A DNA stretch of 60,314 nucleotides from Acidobacteriota bacterium (GTDB taxonomy: Archaea > Nanobdellota > Nanobdellia > Woesearchaeales > DATGWN01). The position numbers and the translations under genes are program-made. The stretch covers positions 1 to 60,314 of the forward strand of contig DATGWN010000029.1 in assembly GCA_035299465.1 (NCBI GenBank), written 5' to 3'. Positions 46,674-49,053 of the stretch are shown here, one piece after another (positions within the stretch are counted from its first letter, which is position 1; the number at the start of each line of letters is the position of its first letter). Below the pieces are notes generated by a model, which was not told where the DNA came from, ran no database searches, and saw only the letters and a program-made list of their open reading frames with translations.

Positions 46674-47531
46674 TTAATCTTCGAAACTGTTTGCAAGTAC
46701 GCTACATCGTTGTGCAATCAATGCAGGGTCCGAGTAAGGAACGATTGTGACTCGCTGCACATTTCTGCCAAAAATATAGTCTGCAAAATCTTTTCCAGCA
46801 TTGTTTTCCTGCAATATATCTAGCGGCAACGTCGACAGCAAATAGGAATCGATGCGCTGTGCCAATTGCAGATTATATCGCTCATAGATTACCGCGTACG
46901 TCTTCTCGCCAGAACGAGCAGCATGCTGAACTGAAAAGTCTGAATATGTATCAGAGTATGCGACTTCCTTAACGTGATCAGGAAGCGTTTGTCCACCAAG
47001 CAATGTTTTCTTATACATGTACTCTGGTGAAACTGTAAAGGACTGCGGTTTAGATGCAAGCACTGTTTGTGCATCATCTGCTACGGTAATGACTGAACAA
47101 ATCATGCAATACGTTGGAATTTCTCCCCACTGCGTACCAATTCTGTCAAACACTGGATTGACGCCGTACAATACTTTTGCATAGCACGTATTGACTTCAT
47201 TCCACATGAACTTGTCTAAGTTGTATGCAACATTATCAGTGATGCCATACTTCACCATTTCGTTTGCTGACTTTCGTTCAAGCATTGGCTTTGTGATGAC
47301 AACTTCGGTGACCGGACATTTGATAGAAAGGTCGGCAACACCCAGCGTCACTTTGTTTGCAAGACCGCTTGCAGCAAATTGCTGTTGACAAAGCGAAACA
47401 TCTTCTGAACCCGCCGTCGCCACATATAGTCGTGAACCAAAGAAATAGACGAACACCATGCAAAGTATAACGACAATTACAACAACCATCGTCATTAACA
47501 TCGGGTCCATCGCTTTCTTGTTTCGAATCAC
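46674..47531 (-). CDS. large Cys-rich pilin-like protein, array gene 7
   Basis: MIRNKKA|MDPMLMTMVVVIVVIL; C..CP..ExxxCY..CxxC..CxVLANS pattern shared with gene 5. Confidence 0.8.
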   Translation of the reverse strand: MIRNKKAMDPMLMTMVVVIVVILCMVFVYFFGSRLYVATAGSEDVSLCQQQFAASGLANKVTLGVADLSIKCPVTEVVITKPMLERKSANEMVKYGITDNVAYNLDKFMWNEVNTCYAKVLYGVNPVFDRIGTQWGEIPTYCMICSVITVADDAQTVLASKPQSFTVSPEYMYKKTLLGGQTLPDHVKEVAYSDTYSDFSVQHAARSGEKTYAVIYERYNLQLAQRIDSYLLSTLPLDILQENNAGKDFADYIFGRNVQRVTIVPYSDPALIAQRCSVLANSFED

Positions 47532-47540
47532 ATAATCACC

Positions 47541-47690
47541 TTATAGTAAGTCACTAAACCAACTCAAAAATCCTGAGCCGTTCTTCCATCCTTTGTATAT
47601 CATGTATACGCTAAACAATAGCAAAACGATGACAAGCACCGCAGCTGCCAATGTCCATAAGGATTGGTTTGCTTTTTTTGTATATTTCAT
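47541..47690 (-). CDS. micro-pilin, array gene 6 (49 aa; absent from ORF track)
   Basis: MKYTKKA|NQSLWTLAAAVLVIVLLLFSVYMIYKGWKNGSGFLSWFSDLL*; fills the gap between genes 5 and 7. Confidence 0.75.
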   Translation of the reverse strand: MKYTKKANQSLWTLAAAVLVIVLLLFSVYMIYKGWKNGSGFLSWFSDLL

Positions 47691-48917
47691 TTAAGGCCTC
47701 GCGTAGCTATTCGCCAATACATCACAATAATAGGAAACTTGTTGATATGGAATAATCATGACAGAATACGTCTCTTCGCTTGGATTGAGTTGAAGGAAGT
47801 GTGAATACAATGCGAACTTTGCTTCAGAACTTGCAGTAGCGGCGGCGATGAATGCAGCAGTCTGTGTTTTAGACATAGACAACGGGAATGCGGCAAGTTC
47901 CCATCTGATGGCAGTCTTTGCACCAAAACGCGAATAAACTGCTGTCGCAAGTCTGCCAACTTCCAAACCGATTTTTTCTTTCCCTGCAGTTGTCAACGCC
48001 TTACCACTCAATCGCAACAAAGCAGAAGCCTTCGAAAGAACACCAAGCGGTGCAGTAAATGGAATGACCGTTATGACCCATCGACCAGTTTCTTTGATGA
48101 CGTTCACAACTTTCTCATCATACGTATATTTGAGAGGATATTTTTTGAAATAGATAACAGCTTGAGGTTGATCGACAGTATAACTTCGGACAAAAGAATT
48201 ACCTAATCCAACTTCAACAGGTAATCCGTGCGTAATAGTTTCCAACGCATTATTTTCTGTCGCCCCTAAAATCTTTCGCTTTTCGATGATGTGATTTACA
48301 GAACGAAGTTTCGAAGCGTCCGTTCCAAGGGCAGCAATTGTCTGTTTGTCAAATTGTACTTTTGCACACATCGCACAAAAGCGCGGCGATTCTACTTGCG
48401 GCACTCCTAGTGCATAGTCTGCAAGTGCATTCCACAATTTTCCAAAAAAGCCGCTTTGTTGTTTGTTAATTTCATCGGAAGATAGTTTGTAATAACTGTC
48501 AAACAAATCAACGTTTCCCGTTTTTTGCCAGCAGTCTATGACTTCATCGGCGAATAATGCGTCAAGATTATACTGAATGGCACCGGTGGGAGTGCTTAGC
48601 TGACTTTCAGGTATACCTTCGCGCAACGCCTTATTCTTTGCCGCCGTAGACAATCGAGAAACAGAATCATATGTCACGTATGTGAATGTTGCGGGACAGC
48701 TGAATTCATATGTTGGATTTCCTAGAACCGACCGCATATCTGTAAAATCACTGATGCGGTTCTGGAACTCTGACTTGATGCCCACAACCTGACAAAATGC
48801 TTTGTCATCGCCTTCATCTCGGATCTTGTTCACCGCGATAAAAAGAAACGTGATTGCAATCATGACTACTAAGAGAATAATCAGCCCTACCGTTCTTCTA
48901 AGCTCGCCGCGTGACAT
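47691..48917 (-). CDS. large Cys-rich pilin-like protein, array gene 5
   Basis: MSRG|ELRRTVGLIILLVVMIAI; FCQ..SCP..EVIDCW..FCAMC..CDVLANS. Confidence 0.8.
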   Translation of the reverse strand: MSRGELRRTVGLIILLVVMIAITFLFIAVNKIRDEGDDKAFCQVVGIKSEFQNRISDFTDMRSVLGNPTYEFSCPATFTYVTYDSVSRLSTAAKNKALREGIPESQLSTPTGAIQYNLDALFADEVIDCWQKTGNVDLFDSYYKLSSDEINKQQSGFFGKLWNALADYALGVPQVESPRFCAMCAKVQFDKQTIAALGTDASKLRSVNHIIEKRKILGATENNALETITHGLPVEVGLGNSFVRSYTVDQPQAVIYFKKYPLKYTYDEKVVNVIKETGRWVITVIPFTAPLGVLSKASALLRLSGKALTTAGKEKIGLEVGRLATAVYSRFGAKTAIRWELAAFPLSMSKTQTAAFIAAATASSEAKFALYSHFLQLNPSEETYSVMIIPYQQVSYYCDVLANSYARP

Positions 48918-48918
48918 T

Positions 48919-49053
48919 TTAACCAAACGCGTCTTTTACGAAGCGAAAACAGAAGTAGAAGACGACAACCAGTATTGCGATAATGAATACTATCTTGCCG
49001 ACATCAAAAAGACTTTCACCTGTAGTTTCCGCCGCCTCTGCGCGTTTATTCAT
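48919..49053 (-). CDS. micro-pilin, array gene 4 (44 aa; absent from ORF track)
   Basis: MNKRA|EAAETTGESLFDVGKIVFIIAILVVVFYFCFRFVKDAFG*; stop is 1 nt before the gene 5 ATG. Confidence 0.75.
   Translation of the reverse strand: MNKRAEAAETTGESLFDVGKIVFIIAILVVVFYFCFRFVKDAFG

What the first reader, a model, noticed from the sequence alone, without database searches (positions are those of the whole stretch)
46674..49053. Duplicated two-gene module: unannotated micro-pilin + large Cys-scaffold pilin
Seen: two ORFs below the track cut-off, 44 aa (48919-49053) and 49 aa (47541-47690). Each is only a class III leader, a TM helix and a short tail, and each sits immediately upstream of a large paralog (genes 5 and 7). 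The large proteins share an ordered Cys scaffold: FCQ/LCQ, SCP/KCP, E..DCW/E..TCY, FCAMC/YCMIC and CDVLANS/CSVLANS. Gene 5 also has a long Ala-rich hydrophobic insert (ALLRLSGKALTTAGKEKIGLEVGRLATAV...AAFIAAATAS) that gene 7 lacks. Inference: an ancient tandem duplication of an obligate pair. The micro-pilin may complement or prime the large subunit's N-terminal helix, and the Ala-rich insert could be a membrane-interacting element.
Basis: partly seen in the sequence, partly recalled or inferred. Interest (0 to 1): 0.68.

Follow-up and report, generated by a model that had tools for sequence, protein, structure and literature searches.

The report
Conserved micro-pilin genes bracketing a Cys-scaffold pilin
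Two tiny unannotated genes (44 and 49 codons) in a pilus-subunit operon of a small symbiont-type archaeon (Woesearchaeota) are real and widely conserved, but they belong to two different old families that flank a new disulfide-rich pilin-like protein, so they are not copies made by duplicating a gene pair.

Summary
Both micro-ORFs exist and are tightly coupled to the next gene. Both large proteins share six nearly invariant cysteines. Gene 5 carries an Ala-rich insert of about 100 residues.

The large proteins belong to an unannotated family. It has 596 cluster representatives, no Pfam or PDB match, and no fold match. It occurs in 104 of 151 genomes of the order and in other orders of the class.

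A hydrophobic micro-ORF ("microA") precedes the family gene in 27 of 30 relatives, against 3.5% of long ORFs in the window's own genome. A second type ("microB": KK[GA]xxxW, helix, amphipathic tail) follows it. The usual order is small Cys-pilins, microA, LARGE, microB, giant class-III protein.

The window's 44-aa ORF scores as microA and the 49-aa ORF as microB. The large genes did duplicate in this lineage, but the micro-ORFs are not duplicates of each other.

The most likely role is headless Flp-like "adapter" minor pilins that couple bulky tip subunits to the filament, like Myxococcus KilK/KilO. This role is untested. The HerA-like ATPase next door is not part of the system.

The parts
48919..49053 (-). 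microA: 44-aa single-helix protein (NKRA motif, transmembrane helix, 8-residue basic tail). Its stop is 1 nt before the start of gene 5.
   Evidence: It scores 14.1 bits on the microA profile against 2.4 on microB. Positional homologues lie upstream of LARGE in 27 of 30 relatives, in 8 of 8 genomes of other orders, and in L001, L059 and L060.
47691..48917 (-). LARGE-a (gene 5): 408 aa from the ATG, or 411 aa from the TTG at 48926. It has a class-III-like N-terminus (SRGELRRTVGLIILLVV), a six-Cys scaffold and a variable insert.
   Evidence: The profile search found 596 family representatives. No Pfam or PDB match. AlphaFold2 mean pLDDT 74. It groups with P0004, P0006, P0031 and P0035.
47793..48116 (-). 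Ala/Gly/Thr/Lys-rich insert of gene 5 (about residues 271-378), in the loop between the 'AVIYF' strand and the last 'IIPY' strand.
   Evidence: Peak KD19 is 1.42 and peak muH is 0.50. AlphaFold2 helices have pLDDT 43-78. Loop length is 15-120 residues in orthologues. Twenty of 145 representatives have a Gly/Ala/Val-rich hydrophobic stretch in the C-terminal half.
47541..47690 (-). microB: 49-aa protein with TKKA-NQSLW, a transmembrane helix, and an amphipathic tail GSGFLSWFSDLL. Its ATG abuts the stop of gene 5.
   Evidence: It scores 26.0 bits on the microB profile against 11.3 on microA. Leave-one-out assignment of the B family is correct for 25 of 26 members. Median tail muH is 0.43 against 0.27 when shuffled. 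Homologues lie after LARGE in 22 relatives directly and in 26 within the block.
46674..47531 (-). LARGE-b (gene 7): 285 aa, 'CQQ' subtype of the same family, with a GTG start 9 nt after the microB stop and GGTGA upstream.
49071..49907 (-). Three tandem small Cys-rich class-III-type proteins (98, 91 and 90 aa), the likely major pilin(s) of the same operon.
   Evidence: Homologues sit in the same position upstream of microA in most relatives.
43078..46656 (-). Six further class-III-like genes of the operon (86, 191, 280, 152, 161 and about 323-363 aa). Here they take the place of the giant 940-1490-aa class-III protein found in other families.
   Evidence: The same set is syntenic in G089 and in L060.
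50040..52034 (-). HerA/DUF87-like ATPase (664 aa), a neighbour and not part of the system.
   Evidence: Pfam DUF87 1.3e-29. Homologues of 41-64% identity occur across many archaeal phyla. Only 1 of 80 such loci has a LARGE gene nearby.

Best explanation
The region is the core of a pilin-only operon of a type IV filament in a Woesearchaeota (DPANN) archaeon. The assembly ATPase, the platform protein and the single prepilin peptidase are encoded elsewhere in the genome.

Genes 5 and 7 are lineage-specific paralogues of a new, class-wide family of pilin-like proteins. Each has an N-terminal class-III-type helix and an alpha/beta head held by six conserved cysteines, probably forming three disulfides.

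The two micro-ORFs are genuine, co-translated genes of two distinct old families. MicroA always sits just before LARGE. MicroB usually sits just after it. Each encodes little more than a basic leader ending in G/A, one hydrophobic helix and a short tail.

I infer that they are 'headless', Flp-like minor pilins that act as adapters or spacers. Their helices would pack into the filament core next to the N-terminal helices of the bulky subunits (LARGE and, in other genomes, the giant protein). This would couple a tip complex to the shaft built from the small Cys-rich pilins and help prime assembly.

Shown: the genes are real and conserved, they have fixed positions, they form two families, the large genes are paralogues, and filament machinery is present in the genome.
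Inferred: cleavage by the peptidase, incorporation into a filament, and the adapter role.
For: Conservation:
- A micro-ORF lies upstream of LARGE in 27 of 30 relatives, against a 3.5% background.
- The pair also occurs in 8 of 8 genomes of other orders and in metagenome relatives L001, L059 and L060.

Two families: profile scores and leave-one-out tests separate A from B. A [KR][KR][GAS] motif precedes the helix in 25 of 31 microA and 25 of 30 microB. A Trp within 8 residues after the motif occurs in 17 of 30 microB. The microB tail is amphipathic.

Coupling: spacers of 0-9 nt join the genes.

LARGE family: 596 representatives, found in 104 of 151 genomes of the order and in 122 of 301 of the phylum sample, all within the order or class. 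Six Cys are conserved. A VKOR gene (disulfide-bond formation family) lies nearby.

Machinery in the genome: five T2SSE-type ATPases and one A24 peptidase. ATPase and platform genes are adjacent on other contigs.

Literature:
- In DPANN archaea, pilins lie apart from the ATPase and platform genes (PMC13705601).
[quoted passage not shown] One of them is encoded in a tip gene cluster (PMC12075869).
Against: - No curated pilin model matches either micro-ORF or LARGE: Pfam, NCBIfam.
- Six of 31 microA members lack the basic motif, and some have acidic N-termini.
- Flank charges do not settle topology. The N-flank is more positive in only 16 of 31 microA and 17 of 30 microB.
- The Flp motif (G/xxxxEY) is absent.
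- No expression, cleavage or filament data exist.
- Co-folding of the pairs could not be run.
Confidence: 0.5

Rival explanations
1. The micro-proteins are real but are not pilins. They would be uncleaved single-pass membrane partners (chaperone, anchor or regulator) that bind the transmembrane helix of LARGE or the next large prepilin in the membrane before assembly, and never enter a filament.
For: MicroA often lacks the basic motif, and some members have an acidic N-terminus with a basic C-tail. Flank charges do not fix an N-in topology. There is no match to pilin models. MicroA is poorly conserved in sequence, with leave-one-out assignment correct for 20 of 27.
Against: Most members of both families carry [KR][KR][GA] directly before the helix, like every other protein of the operon. 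Their position inside a pilin-only operon and the KilK/KilO precedent fit adapters (PMC12075869).
Confidence: 0.3
2. One reading: an obligate micro + large pair was duplicated in tandem as a unit, so the two micro-ORFs are paralogues of each other.
For: The two large genes are paralogues and their orthologue groups are sister clades. Each is preceded by a micro-ORF. The order microA-LARGEa-microB-LARGEb is kept in at least four divergent relatives.
Against: The micro-ORFs are not similar to each other (E=0.2) and fall into different profile families. MicroB already follows a single LARGE gene in most of the order. Independent LARGE duplications elsewhere have no micro-ORF between the copies. 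The giant gene that normally follows microB shares only the N-terminal helix with LARGE (hhalign).
Confidence: 0.1
3. The micro-ORFs are chance open frames or untranslated spacers between real genes.
For: They are short and hydrophobic, and below usual gene-calling cut-offs. Public gene calls made some of their homologues (the 41-aa gene in L002, the 48-aa gene in L059) but skipped others (L001, L060).
Against: They are kept at the same place across an order and a class at 20-30% protein identity of the neighbouring genes. They have family-specific motifs and tails. Their starts are coupled to neighbouring stops. The background rate is 3.5%.
Confidence: 0.03

Closest known systems
KilK / KilO Flp-type 'adapter' minor pilins with KilL/M/N tip complexes of the Myxococcus xanthus Kil (Tad-like) pilus (PMC12075869)
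   Same: They are helix-only proteins of about 60 residues or fewer with a leader and cleavage-type motif. They are encoded beside large minor pilins with novel head domains. One adapter gene (kilO) lies inside a tip gene cluster. Two different adapters exist per system.
   Different: The Kil system is bacterial. There is no detectable sequence similarity, and no G/xxxxEY motif here. The micro-proteins here are shorter, about 35-42 residues after the presumed cut. The adapter role is inferred here, whereas in Myxococcus it rests on deletion phenotypes and AlphaFold3 models.
Headless major pilins: Tad/Flp pilins (for example Caulobacter PilA) and the Methanococcus Epd major pilin (arCOG06620; PMC13705601)
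   Same: They are pilins without a globular head, reduced to the hydrophobic helix and a short tail. Tad pili are thought to derive from archaeal Epd-like pili (own knowledge, Denise et al. 2019).
   Different: Those are the abundant shaft subunits. Here the small Cys-rich pilins are the better candidates for the shaft, and the micro-genes are single-copy, position-fixed companions of large subunits. There is no match to Flp_Fap or Class_IIIsignal models.
Minor-pilin tip complexes of type IVa pili and type II secretion (FimU-PilVWXE + PilY1; GspHIJK), from own knowledge and as cited in PMC12075869
   Same: An operon of several different pilin-like proteins, some very large, is expected to cap and prime a filament made of a small major pilin.
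   Different: Those systems have no helix-only members of about 40 residues. The head folds differ. They are bacterial, with N-methyl-Phe type signals.
Geobacter PilA-N / PilA-C split pilin (own knowledge)
   Same: A very short helix-only pilin gene lies directly upstream of a gene for a globular partner.
   Different: PilA-C lacks its own pilin helix, so the two genes together make one pilin. Here LARGE keeps its own class-III-type helix, so the micro-protein is an extra helix and not the missing one.

Membership tests
Archaeal type IV filament substrates (class III signal peptide proteins) | Short basic leader ending in G/A, directly followed by a hydrophobic helix of about 20 residues | tested here: met
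   Both micro-ORFs (NKRA.., TKKA..), gene 5 (SRGE..), gene 7 (NKKA..) and at least 10 neighbouring genes show it. It is present in 25 of 31 microA and 25 of 30 microB.
Archaeal type IV filament substrates (class III signal peptide proteins) | Match to a curated pilin N-terminal model (Pfam Pilin_N, Class_IIIsignal, N_methyl, Flp_Fap, or NCBIfam equivalents) | tested here: not met
   No such family appears for any cluster protein, even at E up to 0.1-1.
Archaeal type IV filament substrates (class III signal peptide proteins) | Prepilin peptidase, secretion ATPase and platform protein present in the genome | tested here: met
   One Peptidase_A24 hit over the cut-off. Five T2SSE hits over the cut-off. 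The ATPases have adjacent platform-like genes on C7, C25 and C47. None lies in the window.
Archaeal type IV filament substrates (class III signal peptide proteins) | Cleavage by the peptidase and incorporation into a filament | not testable with these tools
   This needs biochemistry or peptidomics.
Archaeal type IV filament substrates (class III signal peptide proteins) | Pilin fold of the large proteins (long N-terminal helix packed on an antiparallel sheet) | tested here: inconclusive
Flp/Tad-type helix-only pilins, including KilK/KilO adapters | Precursor of 80 residues or fewer, all-helical, with no globular head | tested here: met
   The proteins are 44 and 49 aa. Each has one hydrophobic helix plus a tail of 8-18 residues.
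Flp/Tad-type helix-only pilins, including KilK/KilO adapters | Flp processing motif G/xxxxEY and a match to Flp_Fap | tested here: not met
   No E-Y follows the G/A site in either protein. There is no Flp_Fap hit.
Flp/Tad-type helix-only pilins, including KilK/KilO adapters | Encoded within a cluster of large minor pilins | tested here: met
   The order microA-LARGE-microB-giant (or LARGE-b) is fixed across the order.
Flp/Tad-type helix-only pilins, including KilK/KilO adapters | Required for tip function and pilus priming | not testable with these tools
   Genetic evidence exists only for Myxococcus (PMC12075869).
   BLASTP E=2e-6. The six Cys are shared. The orthologue groups are sister clades.
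   E=0.2 between them. They assign to opposite profile families. MicroB is present next to single-copy LARGE in most genomes.
HerA/FtsK-ATPase-driven surface system (Ced/Ted- or VirB4-like) | ATPase conserved next to the pilin-like genes | tested here: not met
   The weak CedD and VirB4 scores are far below their cut-offs. Only 1 of 80 homologous ATPase loci carries LARGE. The ATPase is absent from the 20-kb flanks of 19 other families.

The most novel reading that the evidence does not exclude
MicroA and microB are obligatory, peptidase-processed, helix-only adapter pilins. At about 35-42 residues when mature they would be the smallest pilin class known. Together with the new-fold, disulfide-stapled LARGE protein they would form the universal tip or priming complex of the filament that Woesearchaeota and related DPANN archaea use to hold on to their hosts. 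The paralogue pair in this lineage would give two alternative tips.
Probability: 0.3. Interest if true: 0.65.

Novelty: new variant of a known kind. Interest (0 to 1): 0.5.

Why it matters
DPANN archaea depend on physical contact with hosts, yet their pilins are poorly known. One survey could not identify cognate pilins in nanoarchaeal genomes (PMC4858521). A 2026 survey finds their filament genes scattered (PMC13705601).

This operon provides three things:
- a class-wide, unannotated protein family with a probable new fold;
- two families of conserved micro-proteins that gene callers often miss;
- a fixed gene order that can be used to find and annotate such loci.

If the micro-proteins are adapters like KilK/KilO, then the rule 'bulky tip subunits need a headless coupling pilin' would extend from bacterial Tad pili to their archaeal relatives. 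The practical gain is better annotation and a defined set of proteins for co-folding and for cryo-EM of DPANN filaments.

Tried and rejected
- The word-index homologue search found almost nothing: one hit for gene 5 and none for gene 7. Only the exhaustive profile search revealed the family.
- The search for related loci with the 40-sequence alignment failed because no conserved 7-10-column stretch exists. I used the genome search instead.
- The HerA-like ATPase as the motor of the system: rejected.
- Homology between LARGE and the giant protein that follows microB, which would have rescued an older pair duplication: only the N-terminal helix aligns.
- The insert as a transmembrane hairpin or strongly amphipathic element: not supported.
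- A T4P ATPase near the operon in relatives: none within 20-kb flanks.
- Disulfide pairing could not be read, because model coordinates are not exposed.
- Co-folding of the micro + large pairs could not be run.
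Full report
**What is there**

On the minus strand, 43078-49907 is one tightly packed run of genes. Almost every product starts with [KR][KR][GA] followed by a hydrophobic helix.

Within it lie, in order:
- three small Cys-rich proteins (98, 91 and 90 aa);
- a 44-aa ORF (48919-49053);
- gene 5 (47691-48917, 408 aa from the ATG);
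- a 49-aa ORF (47541-47690);
- gene 7 (46674-47531, 285 aa);
- six more class-III-like genes.

The junctions are 1 nt, 0 nt and 9 nt, the last with GGTGA before a GTG start.

**The large proteins**

Genes 5 and 7 align at E=2e-6 with 22% identity. A second match covers the C-terminal CDVLANS/CSVLANS.

The word-index search found only one outside relative. An exhaustive profile search found 596 cluster representatives at E<=1e-3 and 130 at E<=1e-10.

In 40- and 98-member alignments six cysteines are invariant or at least 90% conserved.

No member hits any Pfam family. The profile hits no PDB sequence.

A VKOR gene (Pfam family for disulfide-bond formation) lies 8 kb away. This fits extracytoplasmic disulfide formation.

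The family occurs in 104 of 151 sampled genomes of the same order. It occurs in 122 of 301 genomes sampled from the phylum, and all hits are within the same order or class.

Record titles of the closest relatives name Candidatus Woesearchaeota.

**The micro-ORFs are real genes**

In 20-kb regions from 20 relatives and shorter loci from 11 more, a hydrophobic ORF of 33-52 codons ends at or just before the start of the first family gene in 27 of 30 assessable genomes.

In eight genomes from other orders of the class it is present in all eight. It is directly adjacent in six and within about 400 nt in two.

In the window's own genome only 25 of 721 ORFs of at least 200 aa (3.5%) have any such ORF upstream. 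Two of those 25 are the ones under study.

A second micro-ORF of 42-66 codons follows the last family gene directly in 22 relatives, and within the block in 26.

Public gene calls made some of them (a 41-aa gene in L002, a 48-aa gene in L059) and skipped others.

**Two families, not two copies**

The upstream type (microA) is a helix with a short tail, median 9 residues.

The downstream type (microB) has three parts:
- a [KR][KR][GA] motif;
- often a Trp within 8 residues after the motif, in 17 of 30 members against 6 of 31 microA;
- a tail of about 18 residues that is amphipathic, with median muH 0.43 against 0.27 for shuffled tails.

Profiles built from relatives assign the window's 49-aa ORF to microB (26.0 against 11.3 bits). 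They assign the 44-aa ORF to microA (14.1 against 2.4 bits). Leave-one-out assignment is right for 25 of 26 B members and 20 of 27 A members. The two window ORFs do not resemble each other (E=0.2).

**The operon plan and the duplication**

The common plan across the order has these parts, in order:
- several class-III genes of about 165-350 aa;
- two or three small Cys-rich pilins;
- microA;
- LARGE;
- microB;
- a giant class-III protein of 940-1490 aa.

The giant protein shares only the N-terminal helix with LARGE (hhalign).

Some lineages have two adjacent LARGE genes with no micro-ORF between them, followed by microB (L054, L058, L038).

In the window's lineage the order is microA-LARGEa-microB-LARGEb. 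This is seen in the window, G089, L059/L062 and L060/L061.

In a tree, gene 5 and gene 7 fall into two sister clades. Each clade has several representatives at less than 50% identity.

So the large gene duplicated in an ancestor of this lineage. MicroB is older than that event, and no micro + large module was copied.

**The insert**

The Ala-rich segment of gene 5 is at about residues 271-378. It lies between the conserved 'AVIYF' strand and the last strand.

That loop is 15-120 residues long among close orthologues, and is Gly/Ala/Val-rich in several.

Its peak hydrophobicity (KD19 1.42) is far below that of the N-terminal helix (3.17). Its best hydrophobic moments are 0.45-0.50. AlphaFold2 draws it as low-confidence helices.

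It is a variable surface loop. A membrane-active role is possible but not indicated.

**The neighbourhood**

The HerA/DUF87-like ATPase at 50040-52034 is a widely conserved archaeal protein, with 41-64% identity in many phyla. Only 1 of 80 such loci carries a LARGE gene. It is absent from the flanks of the operon in other families. Its adjacency here is shared ancestry, as is that of the pyrophosphatase and Dus genes on the other side.

The genome has one A24 prepilin peptidase and five T2SSE-type ATPases on other contigs. These include a separate Epd-like locus on C7 with two platform genes and seven tandem 172-aa pilins. None of the relatives has an ATPase within 20 kb of the operon.

This matches a 2026 survey. 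It reports that in DPANN archaea the ATPase and platform genes sit together while pilins are scattered (PMC13705601).

**How it most likely works**

The operon encodes filament subunits only: probable shaft pilins (the small Cys-rich ones), several larger minor pilins, and two helix-only proteins.

The best-documented parallel is the Myxococcus Kil/Tad pilus. There, tips built from large minor pilins need Flp-type, helix-only 'adapter' pilins (KilK, and KilO of 59 aa) to be coupled to the shaft and to prime polymerisation. One adapter gene lies inside a tip gene cluster (PMC12075869).

I therefore read microA and microB as headless adapter or spacer pilins for LARGE and its bulky neighbours. 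My confidence is about 0.5.

The main rival, at about 0.3, is that they are uncleaved membrane partners of the prepilins. Several microA members lack the basic motif, and flank charges do not fix the topology.

Chance ORFs can be dismissed.

**Relation to known families**

By motif and context these are class-III-signal proteins. No curated pilin model matches, the Flp motif is absent, and processing is untested.

I therefore do not file them as members of Flp or Epd pilin families. I file them as working like such pilins.

Notes from other windows of this scan describe similar micro-genes in other DPANN genomes. I used them only as leads. I reproduced the bracket arrangement here independently and checked the KilK/KilO parallel in the paper.

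**Verdict**

This is a new variant of a known kind, of moderate interest.

Noticed in passing
window 50040-52034 (-): A 664-aa HerA/DUF87-like ATPase with a C-terminal extension of about 200 residues. Homologues of 41-64% identity occur in Woesearchaeota, Aenigmatarchaeota, Thermoplasmatota, Altiarchaeota and Bathyarchaeota MAGs. No NurA partner is evident next to it.
   Followed up: partly
window 38615-39594 (-): A VKOR-family gene next to a peroxiredoxin (AhpC/TSA). It is a likely source of extracytoplasmic disulfide formation for the many Cys-rich surface proteins of this genome.
   Followed up: no
own genome contig C7, about 4000-19100 (-): A separate type IV filament locus. It has an ATPase (484 aa), two platform-like genes (269 and 337 aa), seven tandem 172-181-aa pilins with KKAQSALEFL N-termini, and further class-III genes. 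It looks like the 'system 1' (Epd-like) type.
   Followed up: partly
L039, L041, L043-L048, L050, L052 (relatives): A giant class-III-signal protein (940-1490 aa) follows microB in most Woesearchaeales. Its N-terminal region has a conserved F-x-P-Y motif and a Y-Y-E-x-F-P-x-G-E-E-A-x-W block. The two examples tested had no Pfam match. It is absent from the window's lineage.
   Followed up: partly
window 49071-49907 (-): Two of the three small Cys-rich pilins give weak, below-threshold Pfam hits to a defensin-like family (AtDEF-like, E=0.005).
   Followed up: no
window 52059-52382 (+): A 107-aa ORF of unknown function is conserved at 61% identity in the related genome G089. It has no family match.
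   Followed up: no
relatives G074, G041, G141, G023, G192, G351, G265: The six-frame matches to the LARGE profile include one or two in-frame stop codons in several genomes. These may be alignment run-through at gene ends, assembly errors or pseudogenes.
   Followed up: no
L143, L146, L147 (other orders of the class): MicroB-like genes (about 53 aa, ending ..IKNLFRFG) lie upstream in the cluster there, not directly after LARGE. So the position of microB is less fixed than that of microA.
   Followed up: partly
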